Positions 1 to 50,082 of a stretch of DNA of 64,000 bases are shown piece after piece. Position 1 is the stretch's first letter. Each line of letters starts with the position of its first letter. Both the position numbers and the translations under genes were made by a program. The notes beneath the pieces were generated by a model. The model had not been told where the DNA came from. It was given only the letters and a program-made list of their open reading frames with translations, and ran no database searches. Source of the DNA: Eledone cirrhosa (lineage: Eukaryota); NCBI GenBank assembly GCA_964016885.1, contig OZ024757.1:43772001-43836000 (forward strand), read 5' to 3'.

Positions 1-257
1 GTATGCCATCCTCTTTCTTCCTGAGAGCGGTGAGGCTGGCCGAAAAAAAGAGGCCTCGAGCATAAGAGTCCAGGGCGCCATGGATGAGCCTATTGGTGAG
101 CGCCACAATTGCACTCAGAAGGCGGCGCCCGGCCTCAGCGGAGAGGGGAGATATCAACTCCTTGAGGAGGCCTGGTCAGAGACCATCAACATCTCCGCAG
201 CTGCTAGCTGGGAAGGACCTGATGGCGGACATGATGTCTGCATCAGAAGCCACAAGG
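1..257 (-). mobile_element. CRE-like RLE non-LTR retrotransposon relic, 5' part (unit U0, cut by window edge)
   Basis: Minus strand reads AIRSFPASSCGDVDGL*PGLLKELISPLSAEAGRRLL...LTALRKKEDGI, the pre-RT/domain 0-1 region; identical to 5921-6177. Confidence 0.85.
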
Positions 258-344
258 AGCAAGTGTGGATTACAATACAAAACCTCTGAGAATGATTTCT
301 AAGATATTTCACCATAATTAATTTTCATCAATATATATTAATAT

Positions 345-635
345 TATTATTGTTTATTAGGTCAGGTGGATTGGCCAGAACAATTCTACTCTTCTTTTTT
401 AGATGTCACGATTTTTCATGGCATTCCTGAGATCATTAATCTCCAGCTGGAGATCCAGAGACATCTGATGTATGTAGGTGAACCTCAGTCATCCCACTTG
501 GCTCTTACTATGTTTAGGTATCCACCACAGGAGCCAGCTCATCAGGTCATCCTACCCTCAGCAGCAATGTCCAGCATCTATTGATTTCCGCTCCCTAGTT
601 ATTGTGGTAATCTTCGATATCTGGGAATATATTTC
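345..635 (-). mobile_element. Old RTE-type LINE 3' relic (one per unit)
   Basis: Minus frame KITTITRERKSIDAGHCC*G*DDLMSWLLWWIPKHSKSQVG*LRFTYIHQMSLDLQLEINDLRNAMKNRDI*KRRV resembles the RTE C-terminus (RRLRFAGH...GRP..TY...DR..W); AAT-rich tail near 345. Repeats at ~6265, 16077, 21971, 27888, 33739, 39613, 48340. Confidence 0.7.
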
Positions 636-717
636 TTCTGCTTAAGGGAGTAATAAATATATAGTTTTAAAAAAAACATATATATACACACACATATATA
701 TATGTTGTCATTTATAA

Positions 718-860
718 GAGTTCTCTATCAAAAGCCTTCTCTATGTCCAAAGCTATGTATAGTGGCTTATTTTTCTCTAAGAACCTCTTTTGTAGTTGTC
801 TCACTAAGAAGAGGGCATCTGTTGCACTTTTCAGCGGCACAAAACCAAACTGCATCTCAT
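718..860 (-). mobile_element. RTE RT fragment (one per unit; truncated at 6757 in U2)
   Basis: EMQFGFVPLKSATDALFLVRQLQKRFLEKNKPLYIALDIEKAFDR; nucleotide-level similarity to 54800-54912. Confidence 0.9.
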
Positions 861-910
861 ACACATACATACATATACATACATACATACATATACACAT
901 ACATACATAC

Positions 911-1264
911 ATCATCATCATCATCATCATCATCATTTCGTTTTAAGTCCGCTTTTTCCCTGCTTGTAAGGGTGGGACGGGAACTGATTCTGGCTTGATT
1001 TCTACAGCTGGATGCCCTTCCTAACACCAACCTCATTTACAGTGAGTGCTGAGTGCTTTTTTGCCGTGGCACCTCCACGACCACTTTGCAGTGGAATGAT
1101 ATTGACCCCAGTCCCTATCATCTCATTTCTACAGCTGAGTAAACTGGAGCAATGTGAAATAAAGTGTCTTGCTCAAGGAAACAACACATCACCCGGTCTG
1201 AGAATTGAACTCACAACCTTTCGATTGCCAGGCCAATGCTCGAACCACTAAGCCATGTGCCTCC
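911..1264 (-). mobile_element. tRNA-derived SINE with CORE-like middle and RTE-derived 3' tail (U1)
   Basis: Head GGAGGCACATGGCTTAGTGG (A box)...GAGTTCAATTC (B box); CCTTGAGCAAGACACTT core; tail matches RTE 3' UTR at 41740-41820; ends in (GAT)n. Confidence 0.88.
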
Positions 1265-1740
1265 ATATACATATACATATACATACACATACATATATAT
1301 ATACATACATACATATATACACATACATACATACACATACATACACATATACATACATATACATACATAGATATATATATATACATAATATAAATATACA
1401 TACATACACATACATAAGCATATACACATAAGTATATATACATATACACACGTATATATACATATACATACATACATATATACACATACATACATATATA
1501 CATACATACACACATATATACATATACACATACATACATATACATACATATACACATACATACATATATATATATACATACACACACATATATACATACA
1601 CACACATATATACAAACACATACATATACACATATATACACATACATACACATACATATACATACATATACACATATACACTCATATATACATATACATA
1701 CATACACACACATACATACATATATACATATACATACATA
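1265..1740. repeat. Compound (TACA/TA/CA)n microsatellite (each unit except U2; expanded to ~740 bp at 49272-50008)
   Basis: Low-complexity tract seen directly; source of the Y/I/H/T- and M/Y/V/C-rich spurious ORFs. Confidence 0.95.
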
Positions 1741-2290
1741 AAGACAAATCCACCTCATGGACGAGAATGCAAGGGCTCCTCCTCTTTGTTTCGGCCGCGG
1801 ATGGCTAACCCTAACCCCATCCCCGCTCCCCACCGCTCCCAACCTCCAAACGCAATCCAAAACTTCAGAGTTGGTACCATTAATGTAGGCACCTTATAGG
1901 GTGGCTCTAACGAGGTTGTAGAAATGCTTGAACGTAAGGAGGTCGATGTTTGTTGTATTCAAGAGACCAGGTGGAGGGGTGGGTCTGCTAGATTCATCGT
2001 GGGTAAAGAACGATGCTATAAGCTTTTCTGTGTGGCAAATGACAATGGGCTGGGTATACACATACCACCCCACCACCCCACCGCAAAGTGGTCGTGGAGG
2101 CGCCGCGGCAAAAAAGCACCCAGCCCACACTGTAAAGCTGACGTGGAGGTGCCACGGAAAAATAAAAGCACCCAGCACTCACTGCAAACGGGGTTGGCGT
2201 CAGGAAGGGCACCCAGCTGTAGAAACCAATCCAGAATCAGCTCCCACCCCACCCTTGCAAGCATGGAAAAGCGGACGTATGATGAAGTTG
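1741..2290 (+). mobile_element. Bipartite RTE derivative: 5' UTR + start of APE joined to an RTE-type 3' UTR (per unit)
   Basis: MANPNP...[44 protein letters not shown] matches 60621-60870; from ~2065 it switches to 3' UTR sequence ending GGAAAAGCGGACGTATGATGA. Copies at ~11771 (partial), 17494, 23399, 29257, 35142, 40995, 50009 (partial). Confidence 0.85.
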
Positions 2291-2294
2291 ATAT

Positions 2295-2339
<45 letters not shown>

Positions 2340-2845
2340 TATATATATACACATATATATATACACACATATATATCAGTGTACATATATATATACATAT
2401 ATATATATATAAATGAATATTTATTCAATTTAAAGCGCCAATTATCTATATATAACAAGATATGAATTTTTCTAGGGATGGGGAAATTTTCAGTTTGTTT
2501 TTATATTTTCACTTCATTTTTTACTTTCTATTTAATACAGTCTTTGATCCAATATAATCCTGACAGTATTTGAACCAGTTTACCTCATATATATGTATGC
2601 ACACACAACACTCAAGTTTCGCCATCTACTGCTATTTCATTCATATTTATTGTTTAATTAACTCTGGTCTAATTCATCAACTATTGTTAATTATATTATT
2701 ACGTAGATTTCTTATAAAATCTAGTGCATATATACGTGTATATATACAGGGAGACACTGTGTAATAGATGTAAAGAGAGTTATAGAAGTAAAGAGAGGGG
2801 GAGAAATAAGCGGTAGATAGAGTAATAGATGTAAAGAGAGGGTTA

Positions 2846-3022
2846 GAACGTTCAACTTGACAGTCAGTACAATGTTCAGCATGGTAGCCAGTACATATGC
2901 CAACTACCCAACCGGCCAGCCAGCCGCATATGCGGTTGACTGGCCAGTTGGGCGGTTGGTATGTGGAACGTTCAACTACGCAGTCAGTACCAAAGTTCAA
3001 CATTGTAGCCAGTGCATATGCC
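2846..3022. repeat. 72-nt imperfect palindrome (2894-2965) bracketed by ~56-bp direct repeats (per unit)
   Basis: 35-bp arms around TA centre with 7 mismatches, all transitions; GAACGTTCAACT...CAGTCAGTAC...GTAGCCAGTRCATATGCC at 2846-2901 and 2966-3022. Copies at 12713, 18648, 24565, 30402, 36295, 45214. Confidence 0.9.
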
Positions 3023-3094
3023 GATCGCCGCGCCCTCTTTGCTCTATTTTAATGACCTGGAACTAAGTAAAAAGAGTAGGAGATAACTCGACAA

Positions 3095-3181
3095 GAGCGG
3101 AGAGGGTGAGATTCGAACCATGTAAAGTCGTTGGCTCCTGAACTTCGTAAGCGGGGCTGCTACTGACTGAGCAGCGCCGGC
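3095..3181 (-). ncRNA. tRNA-related Pol III-like sequence (A-box-like/B-box), not a canonical tRNA (per unit)
   Basis: GCCGGCGCTGCTCAGTCAGTAGCAGC (D-arm-like hairpin GCTGCT/AGCAGC)...GGTTCGAATC; anticodon, T and acceptor stems do not pair. 5' ends of copies at 13004, 18935, 24852, 30689, 36582, 45501. Confidence 0.5.
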
Positions 3182-3489
3182 AGCAAGGCAAATCGCGCAT
3201 AAAATAACGCTTATATCGACAAAAAAAAAAAAAGAATTTCAATGTTGCACTCTTGTTTGTTGTTCTTTTATTTTACGTAAACATTTCGCTGCTCTAGCCT
3301 CTTATTTCCTATTAGATTACACTTAATTCCATTAAACATTCATTCTTAGTCTCGTGGTAAACTATTTCATCTATATTTATATCGCTGTTACAGCCTTTTA
3401 TTTCTACATCTATCACCTATAGCCACTGTTACGCCGGTAGTATAAGTAGCTTTATAACAAGAAACGATGATATAACTCCACAAAATGTC

Positions 3490-3580
3490 TTCTTCAGCAA
3501 GACACTTCACTTCATATTGCTCCAGTACACCGAGTTACACATAGACAGATACATACATACATACACAGATAGAAATGAGA
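3490..3580 (+). mobile_element. Decayed SINE core fragment (per unit)
   Basis: CTTCAGCAAGACACTTCACTTCATATTGCTCCAGT...TAGAAATGAGA resembles the SINE middle CTTGAGCAAGACACTTTATTTCACATTGCTCCAGT...TAGAAATGAGA. Confidence 0.6.
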
Positions 3581-4210
3581 GGTAGATAGAGTAAAAGATT
3601 TAAAGAGAGTGTGAGAAGTACGAGTTAGATAGTGTAAAAGATTTAAAGAGAGGGTGAGAGTGTGACACACATTTATCTGTCTATCTCTCTCTATTTTAAC
3701 ACCGGTCGTTATAATTAGTTTTATAACACCGCTATATTACCGACATGAAAGAGGTAAATAATTATTTCTTAAATGTTTAGAACATGTTTCTCTTGTCTTC
3801 TTAAATGTATAGAACATGTTTCTTATTTATATTCTTAACATAGCTAGGACCTTATCTCATTTACTGGTCTCTACTTTTAGGGCTTTGCTGGTCCCATGTG
3901 CCCTCCATGAAGACACACTCGCCCCTTCTCTCTCAGTCTCCGTACTAATTACTACACATACGTATATATATTTATTTTAAGAAACCTTAATGACAAATAA
4001 TATAAAGTGTTTGTAAAGTGGGGAAGAGTAGTTTTACGGTGGGGTTGTTATATAGATATCGTTTTTGCAGTGGGGTCGTGACTGGCGTATAATAATGAGT
4101 CACTGTTGATGTATATACAAATCATATTTTGGATATAAGTGAAGTTATTGAAGAGATTTAGTTGTTTTGTATACATTCCAGTTGTTGTCTCCCTGTTTCT
4201 TCTTCAACAA

Positions 4211-6177
4211 CTATAACGGTACGCGATGGGGCCCACCCACAGCCCCGGCGGACAGAATGGAGAAGGCGTTTCCCCGGAGCACGGCAAGGGAGACGCGCTG
4301 GAAAAGCCACTCCAACTCGCGGGGCTCACACCTGCGGCTGGCCAGCTCAGCGCCTATGGTGGTGAGTAAGGAGGTAGCCCTGGGGCCGAAGACACCAGAA
4401 GTCTCCACTTCCAGGGGTACGACCGCAAACCTGTCGGAGAGTGAACGATATGTGAGGAGTTTGGCCCCCTCAGCCTGACGTGCAGCAGAACCTGGGCCAG
4501 TCGCAGACTGCACCAGGTTGCGGCTGCAGAAAGTGTCGGTGCAAGTGGCATCCCAGACGAGGGGTTTGCCACCGCGGAACGGGAAGATGGTCATGCCATC
4601 TAGCCTTTTGCCGTCCCCTCGAGCTGGGAAGGGAAGCCTGCAGCGTCCAAGCCATGCTTAATGACTTCGTTGAGGGCAGCATGGCGTGGATTGCGGGTGG
4701 AGGCCGAAAGAGTCCATGGTGGAACGGCAGCGACATTGGTGTGAGGCCGAGCCTCAGGGAAACGCCGATGCGCAAGCTATTGTTGTCTAGCTGCGTGCGA
4801 GTGGAGAAGGAGGGAAGGGCATGGAGCCAGGCCCCACTGTGGGGTTTGGAGGCTGCACGAAAACAAACAAGGCGGTGCTGGTCGAGCTGGCACGTGAGCC
4901 TGTCTGAGGCCAGGCTGCACTGGATGGCATCCCAAGTGTGTTGGGGGGGACTTGACGTCAACAGGGGGAGAAGGAGGAGGAACGTCTACTGGGCTAAGTC
5001 CCAGCCGGTCCCACGTCTCACAGGCGGCCACGCGTTCTCTGAACACAGAGGGTTCTGTTGTGTTTTGAAGAACCCTGCTGAAGAGGACGTGGTACGAGGT
5101 TACCGACGAAAGATATGCCGGCAAAGCTAGTGAGATCGGGGACTGGAGGCGAAGGTCGCCATACCTGACAGGTAAAGTTGCATATCTCATCGGCTGCTGC
5201 TCGGATACAAGTTTAGGTGTAGCACAGAGTGTATAGAGGAGCTTCGGCATGGCGTAGCAGTTCCTCAGCAGAAAGAGAACTGGGTGGCCATCAATCAAGC
5301 CCAGTCGGCTCGTGAGAGTCTGGACTTGATGGAGGAGCGGATGGCCAGCGGGTGGATCGGTGAGGGCATCCTCTTTGGGGGGTCACCTGAACCTGGCGGA
5401 GAATGGACCGCACGTCCAAGACGGAGACTGCAAAGCTTGCAGCATCGAGGCTGACATTCACCACCTCCGACTTGGCTGAGTTGACCTGGAGGTCGATTCC
5501 CGCCAGGGCAGGAACCACCGATTGAAGGTCATGGCAGACCGCCTGTACGGGCCCACCCAAAGTAGCATCATCCAGATACCAAACGTTGAGAGGGGCCGTT
5601 ATACTCCAGGCGATGTGGTCAATACCAAGGGTGAACAGGAGGGGTCCCAAAGGGTTGCCCTGTTGGATCCCAGTAGCCAAGGGTATGACCGTATCAGCAG
5701 CATGGCGCATGCTTGGGGCTCCATATGACAGGTAGGCAGAGGGGGCTCGGCTGAGGCAGGCCTCGAGCAGATGATCCCAGCGTAAAGAGTTGAAGGCATT
5801 CCTCATGTCAAACTTGACAATGAGGTGGCTGGAGGCCCTGGATGCCGGTTCCGAGTGTTACGGACTTGCAGATTACCTTGGCAGCCAGCCTCCGGAAGAC
5901 ATTGCCCACAGCAATGGGGCGTATGCCATCCTCTTTCTTCCTGAGAGCGGTGAGGCTGGCCGAAAAAAAGAGGCCTCGAGCATAAGAGTCCAGGGCGCCA
6001 TGGATGAGCCTATTGGTGAGCGCCACAATTGCACTCAGAAGGCGGCGCCCGGCCTCAGCGGAGAGGGGAGATATCAACTCCTTGAGGAGGCCTGGTCAGA
6101 GACCATCAACATCTCCGCAGCTGCTAGCTGGGAAGGACCTGATGGCGGACATGATGTCTGCATCAGAAGCCACAAGG
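4211..6177 (-). mobile_element. CRE-like non-LTR retrotransposon relic (RT + RLE), 5'-truncated, frameshifted (U1)
   Basis: RT motifs KKEDGIRPIAVGNVFRRL, KFDMRNAFNS, GIQQGNPLGPLLF, WYLDD; LPVRYGDLRL; HSGAWLHALP; RLE motif [26 protein letters not shown]...AEGAKLLTY...VETSGVFGP; split over several frames. Confidence 0.9.
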
Positions 6178-7119
6178 AGCAAGTGTGGATTACAATACAA
6201 AACCTCTGAGAATGATTTCTAAGATATTTCACCATAATTAATTTTCATCAATATATATTAATATTATTATTGTTTATTAGGTCAGGTGGATTGGCCAGAA
6301 CAATTCTACTCTTCTTTTTTAGATGTCACGATTTTTCATGGCATTCCTGAGATCATTAATCTCCAGCTGGAGATCCAGAGACATCTGATGTATGTAGGTG
6401 AACCTCAGTCATCCCACTTGGCTCTTACTATGTTTAGGTATCCACCACAGGAGCCAGCTCATCAGGTCATCCTACTCTCAGCAGCAATGTCCAGCATCTA
6501 TTGATTTCCGCTCCCTAGTTATTGTGGTAATCTTCGATATCTGGGAATATATTTCTTCTGCTTAAGGGAGTAATAAATATATAGTTTAAAAAAAAACATA
6601 TATATACACACACATATATATATGTTGTCATTTATAAGAGTTCTCTATCAAAAGCCTTCTCTATGTCCAAAGCTAAGTATAGTGGCTTATTTTTCTCTAA
6701 GAACCTCTTTTGTAGTTGTCTCACTAAGAAGAGGGCATCTGTTGCACTTTTCAGCGGCTTAATTAATTAATGAGGTTTAATTAATGAGGAATTTTGAGGT
6801 ATTTATAACAATTATTAATTATTTCATTACTGAGATATCATTTGAAGGACTTACTAATGTTTTTATTTATTAATTATTTTATTAGTAACTTAACATGTGG
6901 TTCTTGTATAAAATTATGTTGGAAGATTTTAGGAAGATGCTATGTAGCCGGTCGCGGTAAAATAGACGCCCAGGCTATGTAGCCGGTAAGAGTGTCAGAC
7001 TCCATGTGTTGCGGCCCTTTATGGTCTGAGTTAAGACAATTTAAAATCTTTTCCACCATCAATTGTTAAAAAACAAGTTAAAATCATTTTGTCGTCCATT
7101 TGTAACGTACGTTACACTT

Positions 7120-7856
7120 TAGTTACATACACATATACTATGTTACATACACACATCTACTGTGTTACATACACACACATCAACTGGGTTATATACACAC
7201 ACATCTACTGCGTTACATACACATCTACTGTGTTACACACACATCTACTGTGTTACATACACACACATCTACTGAGTTACATACACACACATCTACTGTG
7301 TTACATACACACACATCTTCTGTGTTACATACACACATCTACTATGTTACATACACACATCTACTGTGTTACATACACACACCTGTGTTACATACACACA
7401 CATCTACTGAGTTACATACACACAGATCTACTGTGTTACATACACACACATCTACTGTGTTACACACATCTTCTATGTTACATACACACAATCTACTGTG
7501 TTACATACACACATCTACTGAGTTACATACACACACATCTACTGAGTTACATACACACACATGTACTGTGTTACATACACACATCTACTGTGTTACATAC
7601 ATACACATCTACTGTGTTACATACATACACATCTACTGTTACATACACACATCTACCGTGCTACACACACACATCTACCGTGTTACACACACACATCTAC
7701 CGTGTTACACACACACATCTACCGTGTTACACACACACATCTACTGAGTTACATACACATATACTGAGTTACATGCAAACACACATCTACTCTGTTACAT
7801 ATACACATCTACTGTGTTACATACACATCTACTGTGATACACACACACACATCTAC
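7120..7856. repeat. Minisatellite, 22-24 bp unit CATCTACTGTGTTACATACACA(CA), roughly 30 copies
   Basis: Direct tandem repeats visible; produces the HIYCVTYT/HLLCYIHT ORFs. Confidence 0.95.
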
Positions 7857-8690
7857 TCATACATATTCATAAATAGACACACATTATACAAATAATTATT
7901 ACATACACACACATCTCTGTAATAATTCAGGAAGGAAGGGGCTGGTGAAACGCTATAGCAATGTGTGTGTGTTGTGTACCTTTCAGGTTTACCGGTTTCG
8001 TAGCCTATTTGAAGATTTTATTATAATTATGAACCTTATAATTCAATTAATTATGAATAATTTTGAGCTATTTATCACAATTGTTAGTTAATTACTAACA
8101 TAGTAACTTACCATATGGTTGTTATATAGAATTTTGTTGGAAGACTTTAATTTAGATAGGAACCATTTCCATAGTACGAGAACTAATTTTGGCTGGGTTT
8201 CTACCAAAAGGGTTAATGAAGAATTTTGAACAATTTACTAAAATTATTAATTATTTCATTACTAAGATAATGTGTGAATACACAATTATATGTGTGTATA
8301 TATATATAAACAGTATATATATATATAGTATATATATATATAAACAGTATATATATATATATAGTATATATATATATATATAAACAGTATATATATAGTA
8401 TACAAAAGATGTAGTGGGATAGTGTGTAGTCTTAAGACAAGTCTGTCCAGATAGCTGCGCTGTAACTTACACTTATTGGGACTGTGTGTTGGCAAGCAGG
8501 CCTGTATTTTGGGATCTAGCTGGTCCATTATGAGGGAGGTCTGGTTAGTTGGCAGCACCATGCCTTACTTGTGGTATATGTATGTATAGAAATAAGTTAT
8601 TGTATATGCATAACTGTCCATCTATATGTATACATGTATGTTTACTTATATCTTTGCATACATATATACATTTTCAGATGTATACACGTA

Positions 8691-10610
8691 ATGGTCACCC
8701 GGATAGTAAACCAAGTCATACAGAATGGGGTTGTTCTGAAGGACTGGCGTAGCAGCATCATCATTAACTGTTACAAGGGTAAAGGAGATGCCCTAGATAG
8801 GAGTAACTATAGAGGCATTAAATTAATCGACCAGGTCATGAAGGTCACGGAAAAAGTAATAGCGCAACTAATCAGAGAGAGAATTGATCTAGATGAAATG
8901 CAGTTCGGGTTTGTGTCAGGTAAAAGTACCACAGACGCTCTTTTCATTGTACGACAACTACAGGAGAAGTACCTAGTTAAAAGTAAACCCCTATACTTAG
9001 CTTTTGTTGACTTGGAGAAAGCCTTCGACAGAGTCCCCCGTTCCATTATCTGGTGGGCTCTTAGAAAACTAGGTGTTGAGGAATGGCTTGTGAGAGCTAT
9101 ACGAGCCATGTATAAAGAAACAGTCAGCAAGGTTAGAATTAACAACGAATATAGTGAAGAGTTTAGCGTAAAAGTTGGTGTTCATCAGGGCTCCGTCCTT
9201 AGCCCCCTACTATTTATTATTGCCCTTCAGGCTATAACAGTGGAGTTCAAGACCGGCTGCCCATGGGAACTCCTATACGCAGATGATCTAACGCTCATAG
9301 CTGAATCAATGGCCGAGCTAGAGAAGAAATTCCAAACATGGAAGCAAGGCCTAGAATCAGAAGGCCTTAAAATTAACCTGGCTAAGACTAAAGTTCTAGT
9401 TTGTAGGAAAGAAAATAAGGCGCCGGTCCCTTCCGGGAAATGGCCATGCTCAGTGTGTAGGAAAGGCGTAGGTAGAAACTCCATTTTATGTCCCAAATGC
9501 AAAGTATGGGTTCATAAAAGATGTAGTGGGATCACAGGTAAGCTAACTAAGAACATAGATTTTACATGTGGCCGGTGCTCTGGTGCAATAAGTAGCAGCA
9601 AGTGCCCACAAAATACTAGCTCTTTCAATTGCGCAGAGGGTTCTATAGAAATAGTGGACAGCTTCCGTTACCTGGGTGACAAAATCAGCAGTGGGGGAGG
9701 GTGCTCTGAAAGTACAGTAGCTAGAGTCAGAACTGGATGGAAAAAGTTCAGAGAGCTTATACCACTATTAGCCGCTAAAGGGTTCTCCCTAAAAATGAAA
9801 GGCAGGTTGTATGATGCCTGCATATGAACAGCAATGTTGCATGGCAGTGAGACCTGGGCATTGTGTGCAGAGGATATACGCAGACTAGAGAGGAACGAAG
9901 CTTGCATGCTTCGCTGGATGTGTAATAGTAATATATGTGAACGGCAAAGCATAAACGAACTAAGGGAAAAATTAGAAATAAGAGGGATCAGATGTTGTGT
10001 ACTCGAGAGAAGACTACGTTGGTATGGTCCACGTGATGCGGATGAAAGACGACAGCTGTATAAAAAAAATGCAGGGCAATAAAGATAGACGGTAGCCACG
10101 GAGTAGGCAGACCCAGAAAAACCTGGGACGACTTGATAAATTCCGACCTCACACACTTACACCTCTCCAAGACAATGTCACTGGACCGAGATCTTTGGCG
10201 GTACTCAGTAATAGAGAAGACCCGCCTTACCTAGATACAAAGTAAAACCTACTACAGTCAGTAGGCACCTCTAACAAAATACACCCCCACCCCATCCACA
10301 CCGCCCCTTTCGATGTAAAGTTATGTTGGTGCCACAACATCCAGGCCGAAACAAATGAGGTCGTGTAGGTGTCACGACAAAAAAAAAAAACACAGTCCAC
10401 GCAGTAATGTGGCCGTGTAGGTAACACGGTAAAAACCTCTCAGTCCCACACTGTAAATGCGGTTGGTGTTAGGAAGGGCATCCAGCTGTAGAAAACCCGC
10501 CAGACAGTCCTATGCGAGCAAGACAACCACTCTTGCCTCAAGTGGGAAAATTCCCGTCCAAACCCATGCAAGCGTGGAATATGGACGTTAAACGATGATG
10601 ATGATGATGA

Positions 10611-10613
<3 letters not shown>
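8691..10613 (+). mobile_element. RTE LINE (family B), 5'-truncated, RT + PHD + 3' UTR + (GAT)n tail
   Basis: FVDLEKAFDRV, VGVHQGSVLSPLLF, LLYADD, FRYLG; premature TGA 9825-9827, frameshift ~10029; closely similar to 62168-64000. Confidence 0.95.
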
Positions 10614-10645
<32 letters not shown>

Positions 10646-10648
<3 letters not shown>

Positions 10649-11772
10649 CTTTGACATTTCTTAGAAAAAAAATGAAAAAGTTTTGTGAGAACCCCAATGT
10701 TTATTTATTTTATTTTATTTTTAAATAAAATTAATAATATTAATTTTATTTTGAAATTAGGTTTATAAATATTAATTATCAGCAGACCTTTGTAGCAGTC
10801 TTGGCGGCTTAGTGGGAAGTACCAGAGATGGTGAGGTCCTTGTCTGTAGGTTCAATCCTGGTCTGGGAGTTCAATCATTGCTGTAATGTGTCCTGTTAAT
10901 CTTTTTTTAAATTTTCCTCAGAAAAAACTGAAAATCTTTGGTGAGAACCCCAATGTCTATTTATCTAATATAATTTAATTTATTTTATTTTATTTTACTT
11001 TAGTTAAATTGTCAAAACCACTGGTGATCTAAAGTTAGAGGAGACAGATAAAATAGACATATTGTCTCCTCAACCTTTAGATCTTCAGTGTTTTCGACAA
11101 TTTAACTAAAATAAAAAATTAAATTCAATATAATTAAATAAATAGGGGTTCTCTTTTTCAAAGAGATATAGAAAGAAAATTATAAAAGATTAACATGACA
11201 CCTTACATGTATCTCATGGACCAGGATTGAACCTGAGTCCCCAATTCAACCCTCAGACCAGGATTGAACACCCAGAACAGGATCTCACCATCTCTGGTAC
11301 TTCCCACTAAGCTACCGAGACTGATACAAAGATGTACTGAAATTTAATATTTATAAACCTACTTTCAAAATAAAATTAAAAATAAAATATATATATATAT
11401 ATATTCCTTTGACATTTCTTAGAAAAAAGAACTGAAAAAGTTTTGTGAGAACGCCAATGTCTATTTATTTTATTTTATTTTTAATTAAATTAGTTATATT
11501 TTGAAAGTAGGTTTATAAATATTAATTTTCAATAGACCTTTGTAGCAGTCTTGGTGGCTTAGTGGGAAGTACCAGAGATGGTGAGATCCTTGTCTGTAAG
11601 TTCAATTCTTGCTTGGAGACATGTCTAATGTATCCTATTAATCTTTTTTTAATTTTCCTTTTACATCTCTTAGAAATAACTGAAAATCTTTGGTGAGAAC
11701 CCCAATGTCTATTTATCTAATATAATTAATTTAATTTAATTTAATTTAATTTTTATTTTAGTGAAACCACTG
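10646..11772. mobile_element. Foldback element (~640-bp imperfect palindrome 10740-11379) plus a second, truncated left arm (11403-11772)
   Basis: Arms pair around ~11054 (GAGGAGACA/TGTCTCCTC; CTTAGTGGGAAGTACCAGAGATGGTGAG/CTCACCATCTCTGGTACTTCCCACTAAG; TAGGTTTATAAATATTAA/TTAATATTTATAAACCTA). Confidence 0.85.

Positions 11773-12207: not shown

Positions 12208-12242
<35 letters not shown>

Positions 12243-18041: not shown

Positions 18042-18080
<39 letters not shown>

Positions 18081-22889: not shown

Positions 22890-22890
<1 letters not shown>
22538..22890 (-). mobile_element. Same SINE (U4)
   Basis: Near-identical to 911-1264. Confidence 0.88.
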
Positions 22891-22923
<33 letters not shown>

Positions 22924-23946: not shown

Positions 23947-23997
<51 letters not shown>

Positions 23998-29810: not shown

Positions 29811-29847
<37 letters not shown>

Positions 29848-35689: not shown

Positions 35690-35728
<39 letters not shown>

Positions 35729-40177: not shown

Positions 40178-40532
40178 CATCATCATCATCATCATCATCA
40201 TCATTTCGTTTTAAGTCCGCTTTTTCCCTGCTTGTAAGGGTGGGACGGGAACTGATTCTGGCTTGATTTCTACAGCTGGATGCCCTTCCTAACACCAACC
40301 TCATTTACAGTGAGTGCTGAGTGCTTTTTTGCCGTGGCACCTCCACGACCACTTTGCAGTGGAATGATATTGACCCCAGTCCCTATCATCTCATTTCTAC
40401 AGCTGAGTAAACTGGAGCAATGTGAAATAAAGTGTCTTGCTCAAGGAAACAACACATCACCCGGTCTGAGAATTGAACTCACAACCTTTCGATTGCCAGG
40501 CCAATGCTCGAACCACTAAGCCATGTGCCTCC
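40178..40532 (-). mobile_element. Same SINE (U7)
   Basis: Near-identical to 911-1264. Confidence 0.88.
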
Positions 40533-41548: not shown

Positions 41549-41591
<43 letters not shown>

Positions 41592-41634
41592 TATATATAT
41601 ACACATATATATATATACACACATATATATCAGT

Positions 41635-44600
41635 CATCATCATCACCGTTTTACGTCCGTTCTTCCACGCTAGCATGGGTTAGACGGGTTGTCCTGTTGT
41701 GGGCAGTGTCTGGTCGGCTGACCATGCCTTGCTCATACAGGAACTGATCTGGCTTGATTTCTACAGCTGGATGCCCTTCCTAACACCAACCTCATTTACA
41801 GTGAGTGCTGGGTGCTTTTTCGTGGCGCCTACACGTCCACTTTACAGTGTGGGCTGGGTGCTTTTTTGCCGTGGCACCTCCACGACCACCTTGCGGTGGG
41901 GGGAGGGGGGGGGGGCATATTGTTTATATGCTTCAGCATGTACCCATGGGAGGTCGGGTACCCTGTATTACTGCGTGACGCCAGAAGTCACGGTCGTGTG
42001 TCATTGACTTTGAGAGGTGTAGTTGGGTAAGGTCGGCTTTTATCACCTCATCCCAAGTCATCTTGGGTCTCCCCACTCCGCGGTTTCCATCAACTTCTAG
42101 TGCTCTGCACCTTTTTATGCAGCTGTCATCCTTCATACGCATCACATGTCCATACCAGCGTAACCGCCTCTCCTGCACGCAGCATTTGATTCCTCTTATG
42201 CTCAGTCTCTCTCTCAATTCATTTATGCTTTGTCGTTCACGTATATTACTGTTACACATCCATCGGAGCATGCAGGCTTCGTTTCTCTCTAATCTACGTA
42301 GGTCTTCCACCTTCAGCGCCCAGGTCTCACTACCATGCAACATCGCTGTTCGGATACACACATCATACAGTCTGCCTTTCATTCTGAGGGAGAAGCCTTT
42401 TGCAGCTAGCAGTGGTAGTAGTTCCCTAAACTTCTTCCATCCCGTTCTTACCCTAGTTATTGTACTTTCTGAGCACCCACCTCCGTTGCTAATTCGGTCA
42501 CCTAGGTAGCAGAAGCTGTCTACTGTTTCTACAGGGCCCTCCCAGAGATTGGTGGTACTTGTTTCCTGTGGCTGTTTGCTTGCTGTTTCAGCACAGCTGC
42601 TGCATGTGAATCCTACATTCTTAATTAAGCTTCCTGAGATCCCGCTACATCTCTTGTGTACCCATTGTTTGCATTTGGGGCAAAGAATGGAGTTCCTACC
42701 TACACCTTTCCTACATACTGAGCAAGGCCATTTCCCTGAGGGGATCTGGGTTCTGTTTTCTCGTCTACTTATAAGGACCTTAGTCTTTGTCATGTTGACT
42801 TTGAGGCCCTTTCTCTCTAGTCCCTGCTTCCAGGTTTGGAATTTATTCTCTAGTTCTACCATAGATTCAGCTATGAGTGCGAGGTCATCAGCATACAGGA
42901 GTTCCCATGGGCATCCGGTCTTAAACTCCTCCGTTATTGCCTGCAGGACTATGATGAACAGGAGAGGGCTAAGAACAGAGCCCTGGTGGACCCCAACCTG
43001 TACGCTAAATTCCTCGCTATACTCATTGCCAATCCTAACTTTGCTGACTGCTCCCCTATACATGGCTTGTACTGCTTTCACAAGCCATTCATCTACTCCT
43101 AGTTTTCTAAGAGCCCACCAGATTACTGCACGTGGAACTCTGTCAAAGGCTTTCTCAAGGTCGACAAATGCCAAGTAGAGTGGCTTACTTTTAGCTAGGT
43201 ACTTTTCCTGTAATTGCCTCACAAGGAAGAGCGCATCAGTGGTGCCTTTCCCTGGTACAAACCCAAATTGCATCTCGTCTATATTCACCCGGTCCCTAAT
43301 CAGCTGTGCTATAACTCTTTCTGTTACTTTCATGACCTGGTCCATCAACTTTATACCTCTATAGTTTCCTCTATCTAGTGCATCGCCTTTACCTTTGTAG
43401 CAGTTGACAATGATGCTACTGCACCAATCTTTTGGTATGGCCCCCTCTAGTATTACCTGGTTAACGATACGTGTGGTTATAGTGTGACCTACAGACCCAG
43501 ATGCCTTCAGCATCTCGGCAGCTATACCCGATGGACCGGTTGCCTTCCCTATCTTCATATCTCTGATTGCCTTACTTACTACGCTGCCGCTGACTTGTAC
43601 TGCTGGTCCCTCTATAGGGTCTACGTGGGGTAGGGTCTCTTCTTCCCATGCATTCTCCTCATTTAGTAATCTATCATAATGACTCTTCCATGCATCTTTC
43701 TTCTCAGCACTTGTGAGGGCAAGCTCACCTTTATCATTCCGGATACACTTCTCTCCAATGACATCACAACTATCTCTGACACACTGCCTCGCAATCTTGA
43801 ATACCTCCTGTTTCTGGTCCTCACGTTGTAAAACATGCTTGAATTTTCTATCCTCTGCTTCCCTCCTAGCTAAGTATACTTGTCGCCTAGCTTCCCTCTT
43901 GGTCTCTATGTAATGTACCCTGCTCCCCCCGTTCTTCCATTCTTTCCATGCCTGTCTCTTGGCCTTGACTGCTTCATCTACCTTATTGTTCCACCACCAA
44001 GTCACTCTCCTCCTGCTTGAGGTCTTACTCCAGCCACAAACCTCATCCGTCGCCTCTAGTAAGTTATTTTTTAGGAACTCCCAGTTCTCTTCTACGTTAA
44101 ATGTCTCTATCTGTTCTTCTTTACTGTCGTAGGCGTTGAGTAAAATATCTTTAAATCTGTTACTGGTTGAGGGGACTTTCAGCTTCCAGATCTTTCTTCT
44201 CCAGGTTGGCCTCTGTTTCAGGGCTCGTCTAGTTCTGACCGTGAGGTCGCTGACAACTAAGCTATGTTGGGATGTACATTCCTCACTAGGGAAGGCTTTT
44301 GTGTTTACGACCGTCCATCTGTCACGTCCTCTGATGAGGATAAAATCTAACTGACTAGAGTGCTCCCCTGATCTATAGGTGATCAGGTGGTTGTCGGGTT
44401 TTTTAAAGTTTGTGTTACATATCGACATGTCATTGGCGTCGCAGAATTCTAGAAGTCTGAATCCTTCCTCATTCCTTGTGCCAACTCCATGGCCTCCATG
44501 TACTCTATTGAAGCCGTCGCAGTGTTTACCTACGTGTCCGTTAAAATCTCCTGCAATGATTAGGAAGTCCTTGTCGTCTGTTAGAGCAGTAGTGTGTATT

Positions 44601-44685
44601 AGGGACTCGTAAAACCTATCCTTAAGTTCGTCTGGCAGCCCCGATTGGGGTGCGTAAGCTGATATTATTGTGGTAATTGTCTTAT
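41635..44685 (-). mobile_element. Young RTE LINE insertion (family A), 5'-truncated, TCAGT duplication
   Basis: Inserted at unit site ATATCAGT|GTAC; TCAGT at 41630-41634 and 44686-44690; (GAT)n tail at 41635-41645; absent from other units. Confidence 0.96.
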
Positions 44686-44689
44686 TCAG
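41933..44689 (-). CDS. RTE ORF (partial APE endonuclease, RT with internal PHD finger, C-terminal domain); frame open from the truncation point, first ATG at 44428
   Basis: 831-aa ORF extends 87 codons upstream without stops: LNKTITTIISAYAPQSG...IIAGDFNGHVG...RNEEGFRLLEFC; SQLDFIL, SQH; YADD; RRLRWYGHVMR. Confidence 0.9.
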   Translation of the reverse strand: MNKTITTIISAYAPQSGLPDELKDRFYESLIHTTALTDDKDFLIIAGDFNGHVGKHCDGFNRVHGGHGVGTRNEEGFRLLEFCDANDMSICNTNFKKPDNHLITYRSGEHSSQLDFILIRGRDRWTVVNTKAFPSEECTSQHSLVVSDLTVRTRRALKQRPTWRRKIWKLKVPSTSNRFKDILLNAYDSKEEQIETFNVEENWEFLKNNLLEATDEVCGWSKTSSRRRVTWWWNNKVDEAVKAKRQAWKEWKNGGSRVHYIETKREARRQVYLARREAEDRKFKHVLQREDQKQEVFKIARQCVRDSCDVIGEKCIRNDKGELALTSAEKKDAWKSHYDRLLNEENAWEEETLPHVDPIEGPAVQVSGSVVSKAIRDMKIGKATGPSGIAAEMLKASGSVGHTITTRIVNQVILEGAIPKDWCSSIIVNCYKGKGDALDRGNYRGIKLMDQVMKVTERVIAQLIRDRVNIDEMQFGFVPGKGTTDALFLVRQLQEKYLAKSKPLYLAFVDLEKAFDRVPRAVIWWALRKLGVDEWLVKAVQAMYRGAVSKVRIGNEYSEEFSVQVGVHQGSVLSPLLFIIVLQAITEEFKTGCPWELLYADDLALIAESMVELENKFQTWKQGLERKGLKVNMTKTKVLISRRENRTQIPSGKWPCSVCRKGVGRNSILCPKCKQWVHKRCSGISGSLIKNVGFTCSSCAETASKQPQETSTTNLWEGPVETVDSFCYLGDRISNGGGCSESTITRVRTGWKKFRELLPLLAAKGFSLRMKGRLYDVCIRTAMLHGSETWALKVEDLRRLERNEACMLRWMCNSNIRERQSINELRERLSIRGIKCCVQERRLRWYGHVMRMKDDSCIKRCRALEVDGNRGVGRPKMTWDEVIKADLTQLHLSKSMTHDRDFWRHAVIQGTRPPMGTC

Positions 44690-46494
44690 TGTACATATAT
44701 ATATACATATATATATATATAAATGAATATTTATTCAATTTAAAGCGCCAATTATCTATATATAACAAGATATGAATTTTTCTAGGGATGGGGAAATTTT
44801 CAGTTTGTTTTTATATTTTCACTTCATTTTTTACTTTCTATTTAATACAGTCTTTGATCCAATATAATCCTGACAGTATTTGAACCAGTTTACCTCATAT
44901 ATATGTATGCACACACAACACTCAAGTTTCGCCATCTACTGCTATTTCATCCATATTTATTGTTTAATTAACTCTGGTCTAATTCATCAACTATTGTTAA
45001 TTATATTATTACGTAGATTTCTTATAAAATCTAGTGCATATATACGTGTATATATACAGGGAGACACTGTAATAGATGTAAAGAGAGTGGGAGATAGAGT
45101 TATAGAAGTAAAGAGAGGGGGAGAACTAAGCGGTAGATAGAGTAATAGATGTAAAGAGAGGGTTAGAACGTTCAACTTGACAGTCAGTACAATGTTCAGC
45201 ATGGTAGCCAGTACATATGCCAACTACCCAACCGGCCAGCCAGCCGCATATGCGGTTGACTGGCCAGTTGGGCGGTTGGTATGTGGAACGTTCAACTACG
45301 CAGTCAGTACCAAAGTACAACATTGTAGCCAGTGCATATGCCGATCGCCGCGCCCTCTTTGCTCTATTTTAATGACCTGGAACTAAGTAAAAAGAGTAGG
45401 AGATAACTCGACAAGAGCGGAGAGGGTGAGATTCGAACCATGTAAAGTCGTTGGCTCCTGAACTTCGTAAGCGGGGCTGCTACTGACTAAGCAGCGCCGG
45501 CAGCAAGGCAAATCGCGCATAAAATAACGCTTATATCGACAAAAAAAAAAAAAAAATTTCAATGTTGCACTCTTGTTTGTTGTTCTTTTATTTTACGTAA
45601 ACATTTCGCTGCTCTAGCCTCTTATTTCCTATTAGATTACACTTAATTCCATTAAACATTCATTCTTAGTCTCGTGGTAAACTATTTCATCTATATTTAT
45701 ATCGCTGTTACAGCCTTTTATTTCTACATCTATCACCTATAGCCACTGTTACGCCGGTAGTATAAGTAGCTTTATAACAAGAAACGATGATATAACTCCA
45801 CAAAATGTCTTCTTCAGCAAGACACTTCACTTCATATTGCTCCAGTACACCGAGTTACACATAGACAGATACATACATACATACACAGATAGAAATGAGA
45901 GGTAGATAGAGTAAAAGATTTAAAGAGAGTGTGAGAAGTACGAGTTAGATAGTGTAAAAGATTTAAAGAGAGGGTGAGAGTGTGACACACATTTATCTGT
46001 CTATATCTCTCTATTTTAACACCGGTCGTTATAATTAGTTTTATAACACCGCTATATTACCGACATGAAAGAGGTAAATAATTATTTCTTAACTGTTTAG
46101 AACATGTTTCTCTTGTCTTCTTAAATGTATAGAACATGTTTCTTATTTATATTCTTAACATAGCTAGGACCTTATCTCATTTACTGGTCTCTACTTTTAG
46201 GACTTTGCTGGTCCCATGTGCCCTCCATAAAGGCACTCTAGTCCCTTCTCTGAGCCCCCGTACTAATTACTACACATACGTATATATATTTATTTTAAGA
46301 AACCTTAATGACAAATAATATAAAGTGTTTGTAAAGTGGGGAAGAGTAGTTTTACGGTGGGGTTGTTATATAGATATCGTTTTTGCAGTGGGGTCGTGAC
46401 TGGCGTATAATAATGAGTCACTGTTGATGTACATACAAATCATGTTTTGGATATAAGTGAAGTTATTTAAGAGATTTAGTTGTTTTGTATACAT

Positions 46495-48252
46495 TCATAA
46501 CGGTACGCGATGGGACCCACAGCCTGACGTGCAGCAGAACCTGGGCCAGTCGCAGACTGCACCAGGTTGCGGCTGCAGAAAGTGTCGGTGCAAGTGGCAT
46601 CCCAGACGAGGGGTTTGCCACCGCGGAACGGGAAGATGGTCATGCCATCTAGCCTTTTGCCGTCCTCTCGAGCTGGGAAGGGAAGCCTGCAGCGTCCAAG
46701 CCATGCTTAATGACTTCGTTGAGGGCAGCATGGCGTGGATTGCGGCTGGCACTGTGGCGACAGGAAAGCGGGTGGAGGCCGAAAGAGTCCATGGTGGAAC
46801 GGCAGCGACATTGGTGTGAGGCCGAGCCTCAGGGAAACGCCGATGCGCAAGCTATTGTTGTCTAGCTGCGTGCGAGTGGAGAAGGAGGGCAGGGCATGGA
46901 GCCAGGCCCCACTGTGGGGTTTGGAGGCTGCACGAAAACAAACAAGGCGGTGCTGGTCGAGCTGGCGCGTGAGCCTGTCTGAGGCCAGGCTGCACTGGAT
47001 GGCATCCCAAGTGTGTTGGGGGGGACTTGACGTCAACAGGGGGAGAAAGAGGAGGAACGTCTACTGGGCTAAGTCCCAGCCGGTCCCACGTCTCACAGGC
47101 GGCCACGCGTTCTCTGAACACAGAGGGTTCTGTTGTGTTTTGAAGAACCCTGCTGAGGAGGACGTGGTACGAGGTTACCGACGAAAGATATGCCGGCAAA
47201 GCTAGTGAGATCGGGGACTGGAGGCGAAGGCCGCCATACCTGACAGGTAAAGTTGCATATCTCATCGGCTGCTTCTCGGATACAAGTTTAGGTGTAGCAC
47301 AGAGTGTATAGAGGAGCTTCGGCATGGCGTAGCAGTTCCTCAGCAGAAAGAGAACTGGGTGGCCATCAATCAAGCCCAGTCGGCTCGTGAGAGTCTGGAC
47401 TTGATGGAGGAGCGGATGGCCGGCGGGTGGATCGGTGAGGGCATCCTCTTTGGGGGGTCACCTGAACCTGGCGGAGAATGGACCGCACGTCCAAGACGGA
47501 GACTGCAAAGCTTGCAGCATCGAGGCTGACATTCACCACCTCCGACTTGGCTGAGTTGACCTGGAGGTCGATTCCCGCCAGGGCAGGAACCACCGATTGA
47601 AGGTCATGGCAGACCGCCTGTACGGGCCCACCCAAAGTAGCATCATCCAGATACCAAACGTTGAGAGGGGCCGTTATACTCCAGGCGATGTGGTCAATAC
47701 CAATGGTGAACAGGAGGGGTCCCAAAGGGTTGCCCTGTTGGATCCCAGTAGCCAAGGGTATGACCGTATCAGCAGCATGGCGCATGCTTGGGGCTCCATA
47801 TGACAGGTAGGCAGAGGGGGCTCGGCTGAGGCAGGCCTCGAGCAGATGATCCCAGCGTAAAGAGTTGAAGGCATTCCTCATGTCAAACTTGACAATGAGG
47901 TGGCTGGAGGCCCTGGATGCCGGTTCCGAGTGTTACGGACTTGCAGATTACCTTGGCAGCCAGCCTCCGGAAGACATTGCCCACAGCAATGGGGCGTATG
48001 CCATCCTCTTTCTTCCTGAGAGCGGTGAGGCTGGCCGAAAAAAAGAGGCCTCGAGCATAAGAGTCCAGGGCGCCATGGATGAGCCTATTGGTGAGCGCCA
48101 CAATTGCACTCAGAAGGCGGCGCCCGGCCTCAGCGGAGAGGGGAGATATGAACTCCTTGAGGAGGCCTGGTCAGAGACCATCAACATCTCCGCAGCTGCT
48201 AGCTGGGAAGGACCTGATGGCGGACATGATGTCTGCATCAGAAGCCACAATG
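46495..48252 (-). mobile_element. CRE-like retrotransposon relic (U7)
   Basis: Same motifs; CCHC knuckle intact (46746-46771 retained); ~235-bp deletion at ~46520 removes the RLE C-terminal half. Confidence 0.9.
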
Positions 48253-48904
48253 AGCAAGTGTGGATTACAATACAAAACCTCTGAGAATGATTTCTAAGAT
48301 ATTTCACCATAATTAATTTTCATCAATATATATTAATATTATTATTGTTTATTAGGTCAGGTGGATTGGCCAGAACAATTCTACTCTTCTTTTTTAGATG
48401 TCACGATTTTTCATGGCATTCCTGAGATCATTAATCTCTAGCTGGAGATCCAGAGACATCTGATATATGTAGGTGAACCTCAGTCATCCCACTTGGGTCT
48501 TACTATGTTTAGGTATCCACCACAGGAGCCAGCTCATCAGGTCATCCTACCCTCAGCAGCAATGTCCAGCATCTTTTGACTTCCGCTCCCTAGTTATTGT
48601 GGTAATCTTCGATATCTGGGAATATATTTCTTCTGCTTAAGGGAGTAATAAATATATAGTTTTAAAAAAAACATATATATACACACACGTATATATATGT
48701 TGTCATTTATAAGAGTTCTCTATCAAAAGCCTTCTCTATGTCCAAAGCTAAGTTTAGTGGCTTATTTTTCTCTAAGAACCTCTTTTGTAGTTGTCTCACT
48801 AAGAAGAGGGCATCTGTTGCACTTTTCAGCGGCACAAAACCAAGCTGCATCTCATACACATACATACATATACATACATACATACATATACACATACATA
48901 CATA

Positions 48905-48943
<39 letters not shown>

Positions 48944-49271
48944 TTCGTTTTAAGTCCGCTTTTTCCCTGCTTGCAAGGGTGGGACGGGAACTGATTCTGG
49001 CTTGATTTCTACAGCTGGATGCCCTTCCTAACACCAACCTCATTTACAGTGAGTGCTGGGTGCTTTTTTGCCGTGGCACCTCCACGACCACTTTGCAGTG
49101 GAATGATATGGACCCTAGTCCCTATCATCTCATTTCTACAGCTGAGTAAACTGGAGCAATGTGAAATAAAGTGTTTTGCTCAAGGAAACAACACATCACC
49201 CGGTCTGAGAATTGAACTCACAACCTTTCGATTGCCAGGCCAATGCTCTAACCACTAAGCCATGTGCCTCC
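48905..49271 (-). mobile_element. Same SINE (U8)
   Basis: Near-identical to 911-1264. Confidence 0.88.
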
Positions 49272-50082
49272 ATATACATATACATACACATACATACATA
49301 CATACACACACATACATACATACATACACATATACATACACATATACATACATATACATACATACATATATATATACATATACATACATACGCATACATA
49401 AGCATATACACAAGTATATATACATATACATACATACATATACATACATACATACACACACACACATACATACACACACACACATATATACACATACATA
49501 CATATATACACATACATACATATATACACATACATACATATATACACATACATACATATATACACATACATATATATATACACATACATATATATATACA
49601 CATACATATATATATACACATACATATATATATACACATACATATATATATACACATACATATATACACACACATACATATATACATACACACATACATA
49701 TTTACATACACACACATATATATATACATACATACACACATATATATATACATACATACACACATATACATACATACACACATATACATACATACACACA
49801 TACATACATACACACATACATACATACACACATATATACATACATACATATACATATACACATATATACACATACATATATACATATACATACATACATA
49901 CACATACATACATACATACACATACATGCATATACATACATGCATATACATACATGCATATACATACATACATACACATACATGCATATACATACGTACA
50001 CATACATAAAGACAAATTCACCTCATGGACGAGAATGCAAGGGCTCCTCTTTGTTTCGGATGGCTAACATAACCCCATCAGA

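What the first reader, a model, noticed from the sequence alone, without database searches (positions are those of the whole stretch)
1..50078. ~5.9-kb macrosatellite assembled from a dead CRE/RLE retrotransposon, RTE and SINE scraps, a hairpin and a tRNA-like module
Seen: at least 8 near-identical head-to-tail units with no host gene. All CRE copies share the same 5' truncation, stop and internal RT deletions, so the element died before amplification and the array grew at DNA level, not by retrotransposition. Known: CRE-clade elements (CRE1, SLACS, CZAR) often sit in tandem RNA-gene arrays. Inference: the amplified entity may be the non-TE core (~2400-4200, with palindrome and Pol III-like sequence), i.e. 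an unrecognised small-RNA array or TE-sampling locus. It may equally be a neutral satellite.
Basis: partly seen in the sequence, partly recalled or inferred. Interest (0 to 1): 0.75.

Follow-up and report, generated by a model that had tools for sequence, protein, structure and literature searches.

The report
Chromosome-end macrosatellite of dead transposons
This 5.9-kb repeat of broken jumping-gene scraps is part of a block of DNA that lies next to the telomere at 14 or more chromosome ends of this animal genome; it likely spread by recombination between ends and likely has no function of its own.

Summary
The array is real and extends far beyond the window. The window lies 109 kb from the end of chromosome C18; the telomere begins 93 kb past the array. 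About 300-320 copies of the unit exist genome-wide. They sit at 7 of the 10 telomere-capped scaffold ends, all with the same polarity towards the telomere. Of 10 apparently internal sites tested, 7 lead into a TTAGGG tract; in 6 the tract was seen to stop at a scaffold gap, so these are likely misplaced chromosome ends. Copies differ as little between ends (0.75%) as within an end (0.81%), which points to exchange between ends. The small-RNA-array idea is not supported: core, hairpin and tRNA-like module vary as much as the dead CRE, and Rfam and ARAGORN find nothing there. No RNA data were available. Verdict: a subtelomeric macrosatellite, a new member of a known kind; four paper searches showed no cephalopod description.

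The parts
1..50079 (+). Distal 50 kb of a subtelomeric macrosatellite array of about 185 kb (C18:43.637-43.822 Mb); the + strand points to the telomere
938..1820 (+). SINE-type scrap (tRNA-like head 1198-1255, minus strand), (ATAC)n and RTE 5' leader. This stretch flanks the unique part on both sides at low-copy ends and is the likely seed of the tandem duplication
   Evidence: seeding role inferred
1741..2411 (+). Internally deleted RTE: 5' leader and endonuclease start to 2055, 3' tail 2068-2290, then (AT)n
2420..4217 (.). AT-rich core with no dispersed family at high identity and no sign of constraint
2894..2965 (.). Hairpin with a 34-pair stem and 4-nt loop, between two ~55-bp direct repeats
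3085..3185 (-). Degenerate tRNA-derived module (A- and B-box-like motifs, T5 run at 3069-3073); not a tRNA
3486..3530 (.). Scrap of an abundant dispersed repeat (SINE-like; label recalled)
   Evidence: depth spike and loose ends; hits
3978..4009 (-). One side of the CRE insertion site: relic of DNA downstream of a C2H2 zinc-finger gene
   Evidence: locus L190 holds this and 6184-6605 only 21 bp apart
4218..6188 (-). Dead CRE-like non-LTR retrotransposon (RT and restriction-like endonuclease), truncated at both ends, TGA at 6096-6098, frameshifts and deletions
6184..6605 (-). Other side of the insertion site: relic 78-90% like DNA downstream of a C2H2 zinc-finger ORF
6759..11770 (+). 5-kb segment defining the 9.8-kb unit type: 22-24-bp minisatellite 7122-7857, RTE fragment 8691-10524, fold-back element 10629-11770
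41635..44685 (-). Young 5'-truncated RTE with a 933-aa open frame, inserted into one unit after amplification; TCAGT duplicated at its ends
50080..64000 (+). Start of the distal block shared at 94-99.6% with other ends (RTE scraps), leading to a 3.35-kb macrosatellite, an 11-bp satellite, (TTGGGG)n and the (TTAGGG)n telomere

Best explanation
The repeat is a subtelomeric macrosatellite: a 5.9-kb stretch of dead retrotransposon scraps inside a block that lies next to the telomere at 14 or more ends, likely amplified by unequal exchange and passed between ends by recombination, and likely without a function of its own. Shown: position 60-100 kb from a telomere tract, one polarity, a shared distal block, equal divergence within and between ends, a CRE broken before amplification, and no excess conservation in the core. 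Inferred steps: (1) a CRE copy landed in leftover DNA downstream of a zinc-finger gene and decayed; (2) this stretch became part of the common chromosome-end block; (3) two copies of a SINE/(ATAC)n/RTE-leader stretch on either side allowed misaligned exchange and gave the 5.9-kb period; (4) further unequal exchange made arrays of roughly 15-55 units with array-specific higher-order periods; (5) non-allelic recombination or break-induced replication copied arrays and distal block between ends.
For: The window is C18:43,772,001-43,836,000 of a 43,930,943-bp contig. (TTGGGG)n/(TTAGGG)n begins at 43,914,931 and runs to the end. Of 54 ends of 27 large scaffolds, 10 carry telomere repeats; 7 of these carry the unit (C5, C6, C13, C18 ends on +; C9, C13, C19 starts on -). 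C8 start, C10 end and C15 start stop inside the block. Of 10 internal sites probed, 7 lead into a telomere tract of matching polarity; in 6 it stops at a 200-N gap with 0-1 telomere hexamers in the 0.9-2 kb read beyond. The 3 capped ends with no unit listed share the telomere-adjacent modules at 90-98%. Mean divergence among 18 array-body copies is 0.81% within and 0.75% between ends, and copies group by unit type, not by chromosome. Periods differ by array: 9.8 kb on C18, 15.7 kb on C10, 21.6 kb on C13. Several array edges fall in the SINE/RTE stretch (unit positions 929, 984, 2068, 2068; distal edge 1820). Diversity in the core is no lower than in the dead CRE. Runs from other studies hold the core with the array's own variants.
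Against: No RNA, chromatin or long-read data, so neutrality rests on polymorphism among young copies, which has little power for a 100-bp element. The B-box 13-mer is invariant in 33 of 33 copies (about 12% by chance at 15% variable sites; my estimate). The two common hairpin-stem variants keep pairing; the 8 pair-breaking variants are each in only 1-2 of 32 copies. The tile 6120-6489 is the least variable of 11 (8.1% variable sites against 12-19.5%), unexplained. Three internal sites (C1, C7, C18:10.5 Mb) showed no TTAGGG tract in the 30-40 kb read; C7 was still inside the distal block. Some proximal edges (C8, C5) do not fall in the flanking repeat. Unequal exchange, break-induced replication and rolling-circle copying cannot be told apart from one assembly.
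Confidence: 0.8

Rival explanations
1. The arrays work like Drosophila telomere-associated sequences: germline piRNA sources whose scraps of CRE, RTE and SINE families help silence those elements and set telomeric heterochromatin. This could be true on top of the best explanation.
For: The position proximal to the telomere and the complex satellite-like make-up match the description of TAS in PMC6043984 (passages read). The block holds both-strand pieces of families that are abundant (CRE) or recently active (RTE with 99.4-99.9% twins).
Against: No small-RNA data. The unit's CRE is 7-10% or more from dispersed copies, a poor guide. TE scraps are everywhere in this genome, so content alone does not single the block out.
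Confidence: 0.12
2. The core is an unrecognised Pol III small-RNA or hairpin-RNA gene whose dosage was amplified.
For: Real hairpin; A- and B-box-like motifs with a T5 run; B box invariant in 33 copies. The core has no dispersed family: 319 matches at up to 3 mismatches and 606 two-per-unit matches agree with the block's copy number.
Against: No Rfam or ARAGORN match. The tRNA-like part folds like shuffles. Diversity equals or exceeds that of the dead CRE; 0 compensatory, 5 one-sided and 8 pair-breaking variants; 9 A-box variants among 33 copies. The 4-nt loop is short for a pre-miRNA (recalled). Ends with only one to a few units exist.
Confidence: 0.04
3. The unit is a non-autonomous rolling-circle (Helitron-like) element that forms concatemers in subtelomeres, as proposed for Hydractinia.
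For: Head-to-tail arrays, captured-looking content, a hairpin; precedent in PMC11934779 (first of 6 parts read).
Against: No fixed ends: array edges fall at many unit positions. The hairpin lies inside the unit. Where read, copies travel with the distal block. On C1-C5 (58% of the genome) only 9 matches were found, all in block-like clusters.
Confidence: 0.03
4. The array is an assembly artefact.
For: Scaffolding near these blocks is faulty: telomeres are joined into scaffold interiors. No long reads were seen.
Against: Units carry nested SNPs and indels, two unit types and a private RTE insertion with a target duplication. Runs of other studies show the same variants. Copy numbers per end may still be off.
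Confidence: 0.01

Closest known systems
Human subtelomeric duplicons (PMC2323237, abstract and outline read) and D4Z4 at 4q/10q (search listing only)
   Same: Blocks duplicated between chromosome ends within the last 100-500 kb; a kilobase-scale macrosatellite some way in from the telomere, shared by more than one end.
   Different: D4Z4 carries the DUX4 gene; this unit carries no intact gene. It is on 14 or more ends rather than two. No sequence relationship is claimed.
Chlamydomonas Sultan/Subtile/Suber arrays (PMC8287924, abstract and part 1 of 2 of the Discussion read)
   Same: Tandem elements on most subtelomeres; growth ascribed to unequal sister exchange or break-induced replication.
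   Different: Sultan arrays touch the telomere and are more alike within than between ends. Here the array is 60-100 kb in, and divergence is the same within and between ends.
Hydractinia subtelomeric repeat HSymSR (PMC11934779, first of 6 parts read)
   Same: TE-derived repeat amplified locally in subtelomeres of an invertebrate.
   Different: 372-bp Helitron-like unit making up, with its partner, a quarter of the genome. Here a 5.9-kb composite of non-LTR scraps, about 2.2 Mb (0.07%).
Drosophila telomere-associated sequences (PMC6043984, passages read)
   Same: Complex satellite-like repeats proximal to the terminal array.
   Different: TAS are shown piRNA clusters; untested here. This genome has (TTAGGG)n telomeres.
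MoTeR telomeric retrotransposons of Magnaporthe, related to CRE1 and SLACS (10.1101/845669, passages read)
   Same: RT with restriction-like endonuclease found near chromosome ends.
   Different: MoTeRs insert into telomere repeats and keep them at their 3' ends. This CRE has no telomere repeat at its ends, its family is dispersed, and it is a passenger.

Membership tests
Subtelomeric repeat / duplicon | Lies within a few hundred kb of a telomere tract | tested here: met
   93 kb on C18; 7 capped scaffold ends and 7 capped internal sites; 3 of 10 internal sites showed no tract in the stretch read
Subtelomeric repeat / duplicon | Duplicated at several chromosome ends with one polarity | tested here: met
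Subtelomeric repeat / duplicon | Rare elsewhere in the genome | tested here: met
   9 matches on C1-C5, all in block-like clusters; total counts match the block copy number; match lists beyond the first 100 not shown
Macrosatellite | Kilobase units in head-to-tail arrays of tens of copies, variable in number | tested here: met
   5.9- and 9.8-kb units; 1 to about 55 units per end; variation between individuals not tested
CRE-clade non-LTR retrotransposon (the 4218-6188 piece) | RT followed by a zinc knuckle and restriction-like endonuclease in one ORF | tested here: met
   RVT_1; about 50% identity from RT to C-terminus with 900-1000-aa proteins; endonuclease motifs recognised from recall, no Pfam hit for that part
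CRE-clade non-LTR retrotransposon (the 4218-6188 piece) | Groups with named CRE elements in an RT tree | not tested
   Homologues found were unnamed or 'uncharacterized'; PMC10294476 (passages) reports CRE types in cephalopods
Site-specific CRE1/SLACS/MoTeR elements | Insert into one target (spliced-leader genes or telomere repeats) | tested here: not met
   14 dispersed copies with a 3' end have unrelated flanks and no telomere repeats (a 15th was truncated)
Tandem Pol III / small-RNA gene array | Match to a known RNA family or tRNA fold | tested here: not met
Tandem Pol III / small-RNA gene array | RNA part more conserved than spacer | tested here: not met
   low power for short elements
Tandem Pol III / small-RNA gene array | Discrete transcript | not testable with these tools
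   no run on record as RNA
TAS-type piRNA cluster | Dual-strand piRNA production in the germline | not testable with these tools
   no small-RNA data
Helitron concatemer | Fixed termini and solitary insertions | tested here: not met
   array edges vary and copies travel with the distal block

The most novel reading that the evidence does not exclude
The arrays are telomere-associated piRNA clusters of a cephalopod: a cassette of CRE, RTE and SINE fragments, still trapping live RTE insertions, amplified to about 300 copies and kept uniform across chromosome ends as a shared transposon-defence and telomere-chromatin module.
Probability: 0.12. Interest if true: 0.6.

Novelty: new member of a known kind. 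Interest (0 to 1): 0.3.

Why it matters
It gives a sequence-level map of a cephalopod-type chromosome end: unique DNA, 5.9-kb macrosatellite, RTE-rich spacer, 3.35-kb macrosatellite, 11-bp satellite, (TTGGGG)n, (TTAGGG)n. My four searches listed no such description; the library lacks most subscription journals. It suggests recent exchange between ends. It is also a practical marker: it located six telomeres joined across gaps into scaffold interiors, two of them in the middle of C11, which matters for anyone inferring fusions or synteny from this assembly. As biology the kind is well known from humans, algae, flies and a cnidarian.

Tried and rejected
No RNA holder listed. Run X6 has no kind on record; its contigs cover the core and its depth is uneven, but I draw nothing on expression from it. 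Small-share runs X7-X10 hold only short pieces and say nothing on conservation in relatives; X2 and X5 carry other organism labels but near-identical sequence, which I could not interpret. Rfam hits below threshold in the unit were microsatellite matches to miRNA models plus weak hairpin matches. An exon-intron-like look at 6262-6501 led nowhere as a protein: no homologue (weak evidence), one Pfam hit below cut-off, and the genome search filled with array copies (150 scored of 670). Two variant patterns for that region gave 4 array hits and 0 hits; a third found the empty site. A telomere-junction pattern matched only its source end. The codon read-out was offset and is replaced; the 3'-end 20-mer did not discriminate and one search is used instead. 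My first reading of the internal copies as old interstitial relics (notebook) was dropped. A centromere reading was dropped because of the telomere-adjacent position. Searches of this scan's earlier findings by sequence, nearby place and words returned nothing.
Full report
Observation. A self-comparison shows a period of about 5.9 kb from base 1 to 50079, with units 95-99.6% identical. The window holds 7 cores and 8 CRE 5' junctions. Two interruptions exist. Bases 6759-11770 replace unit positions 839-1950 and define a 9.8-kb unit type whose junction occurs 84 times in the genome. Bases 41635-44685 are a 5'-truncated RTE with a 933-aa open frame (RVT_1, endonuclease, PHD) and a duplicated TCAGT. 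It inserted after amplification and has 99.4-99.9% twins near the C9 and C19 arrays.

The CRE piece. Bases 4218-6188 (minus strand) align at about 50% identity, in frameshifted pieces, to 900-1000-aa RT-endonuclease proteins. The CRE label rests on recalled motifs and on a report of CRE types in cephalopods (PMC10294476, passages); I built no tree with named elements. A query from the N-terminal part, which the unit lacks, gave 150 scored matches of 1600 candidates spread over the genome, so the family is dispersed. Twenty such copies are a median 90% alike; most match the unit at 87-93% in the best-aligned block and at 78-83% where the unit has deletions. Fourteen copies share a 3' tail that the unit lacks, followed by unrelated flanks without telomere repeats. 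The 5' junction and RT deletion were each found 35 times in block DNA and never in 35 dispersed loci; the TGA is in 35 of 35 block copies against 1 of 18 dispersed. A 26-bp deletion is in only 16 of 35. Locus L190 holds the sequences on both sides of the insertion 21 bp apart, downstream of a 308-aa C2H2 zinc-finger frame. The CRE therefore landed in a zinc-finger-associated relic, not in an RNA gene.

Where the array lies. The window is C18:43,772,001-43,836,000 and C18 is 43,930,943 bp. Beyond the array come RTE-rich DNA, a 3.35-kb macrosatellite, an 11-bp satellite, and from 43,914,931 (TTGGGG)n then (TTAGGG)n to the end. A core 28-mer has 285 exact matches, another 319 at up to 3 mismatches, and a twice-per-unit motif 606: about 300-320 units, about 2.2 Mb. 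The distal junction occurs at 22 places. I read the terminal 2 kb of all 54 ends of 27 large scaffolds: 10 carry telomere repeats. Seven of these have the unit about 90-130 kb in, on + at scaffold ends and on - at starts. The other three (C7 start, C10 start, C14 end) have no unit in the lists seen, which were cut at 100 rows, but share the telomere-adjacent modules at 90-98%. C8 start, C10 end and C15 start stop inside the block.

Internal copies. I probed 10 internal sites about 45-115 kb distal of the unit. Seven lead into a telomere tract of matching polarity (C2 twice, C3, C4, C11 twice, C24). In six the tract stops at a 200-N gap with 0-1 telomere hexamers in the 0.9-2 kb read beyond; C24's far side was not read. 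An internal telomere array too long to span would be expected to continue across the gap, so these are most likely true ends misplaced by scaffolding. C7:65.7 Mb was still inside the distal block where my stretch ended. C1:1.2 Mb and C18:10.5 Mb showed no TTAGGG tract. Small contigs C58, C298 and C1499 also hold units.

How it spread. Over bases 4700-6560, 18 array-body copies differ by 0.81% within an end (41 pairs) and 0.75% between ends (112 pairs); for the core the figures are 0.91% and 0.86%. Copies following the 5-kb segment group together across C13 and C18. Low-copy ends and edge copies are 1.6-1.8% away (29 copies per segment, from the loci I had fetched, about a tenth of all). Higher-order periods are array-specific: 9.8 kb on C18, 15.7 kb on C10, 21.6 kb on C13. 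At low-copy ends the unique part is flanked on both sides by the SINE/(ATAC)n/RTE-leader stretch, and several array edges fall in it or in the RTE tail (929, 984, 2068, 2068, 1820), though C8 and C5 do not. I infer seeding by misaligned exchange between those flanks, growth by unequal exchange, and transfer between ends by non-allelic recombination or break-induced replication. These mechanisms are proposed for Chlamydomonas arrays (PMC8287924), where exchange between ends is rarer than here.

Is the core a gene? ARAGORN and Rfam find nothing in 2400-4200 at gathering scores; at E<=5 only weak hairpin and microsatellite matches appear. The hairpin is real. The tRNA-like module has A- and B-box-like motifs (post hoc) but folds like shuffles. 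Across 69 aligned pieces (about 31-35 copies per site) diversity is 1.92% in the core, 2.91% in the hairpin, 2.30% in the tRNA-like module and 1.62% in the dead CRE. Hairpin variants are 0 compensatory, 5 one-sided, 8 pair-breaking and 6 gaps (an earlier, smaller set gave the same order). Against neutrality: the B box is invariant in 33 copies, the common stem variants keep pairing, and the tile 6120-6489 is the least variable of 11. Expression could not be tested.

Artefact check. Nested variants, two unit types and a private insertion argue for real copies. A contig from another study spans 2420-4178 with the array's 34-bp deletion, and raw reads of another sample show the 12-bp insertion at 2775 and several array SNPs. 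No long reads were seen, so unit counts per end are provisional.

Comparison and verdict. It works like, and passes the tests for, a subtelomeric macrosatellite within an inter-chromosomal duplicon, as in human subtelomeres (PMC2323237), Chlamydomonas and Hydractinia (PMC11934779). It fails the tests for a site-specific CRE/MoTeR array, an RNA-gene array and a Helitron concatemer. The host is octopod-like by inference: named hits are Octopus proteins, and the repeat and zinc-finger types are recalled as octopod. Searches listed no description of cephalopod subtelomeres; some searches were for precedents. Interest 0.3; new member of a known kind.

Noticed in passing
G000 C11:35,204,862-35,217,692 and C11:32,848,120-32,859,107; also C2:832.4 kb, C2:412.2946 Mb, C3:361.5525 Mb, C4:1.8845 Mb, C24:9.115-9.124 Mb: Telomere tracts of several kb inside scaffolds, six seen to end at a 200-N gap with no telomere repeat beyond: probable scaffolding misjoins; C11 has two mid-chromosome.
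   Followed up: partly
L011-L013 (C18:43.842-43.866 Mb), L020, L110-L111, L216-L218: A second subtelomeric macrosatellite, period 3.35 kb, made of RTE scraps, near-identical within C18 and about 98% between ends.
   Followed up: partly
window 41635-44685; L165, L085: Young RTE family with an open 933-aa frame including a PHD finger and 99.4-99.9% twins near other arrays; probably recently active.
   Followed up: partly
L106 8931-9341, L043, L124, L191, L197, L219, L225, L227: A (TTGGGG)n variant tract separates the subtelomere from canonical (TTAGGG)n at these ends.
   Followed up: no
window 6120-6489: Least variable 370-bp tile of the unit (8.1% variable sites), lying mostly in the zinc-finger-downstream relic and holding most of an 80-codon open frame without homologues.
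   Followed up: partly
L081 (C6:102.296 Mb), L155 (C26 end), L190: C2H2 zinc-finger arrays close to the proximal edge of the C6 array and at the C26 end; the block may have arisen near such a gene cluster.
   Followed up: no
L222-L224 (C18:10.455-10.485 Mb): At least 30 kb with about 500 isolated TTGGGG hexamers per 10 kb, probably a ~20-bp satellite, distal of a partial block copy.
   Followed up: no
L041 (C1499:1-2000): This 1.1-Mb contig starts with G-rich TTAGGG on the + strand while its array is on the - strand, the reverse of every other start.
   Followed up: no
window 10629-11770: Fold-back element with arms of several hundred bases at 70-76% complementarity inside the 5-kb segment.
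   Followed up: no
L040 and C58:136-167 kb: On C58 the unit plus part of the distal flank repeats with a 10-kb period, four times.
   Followed up: no
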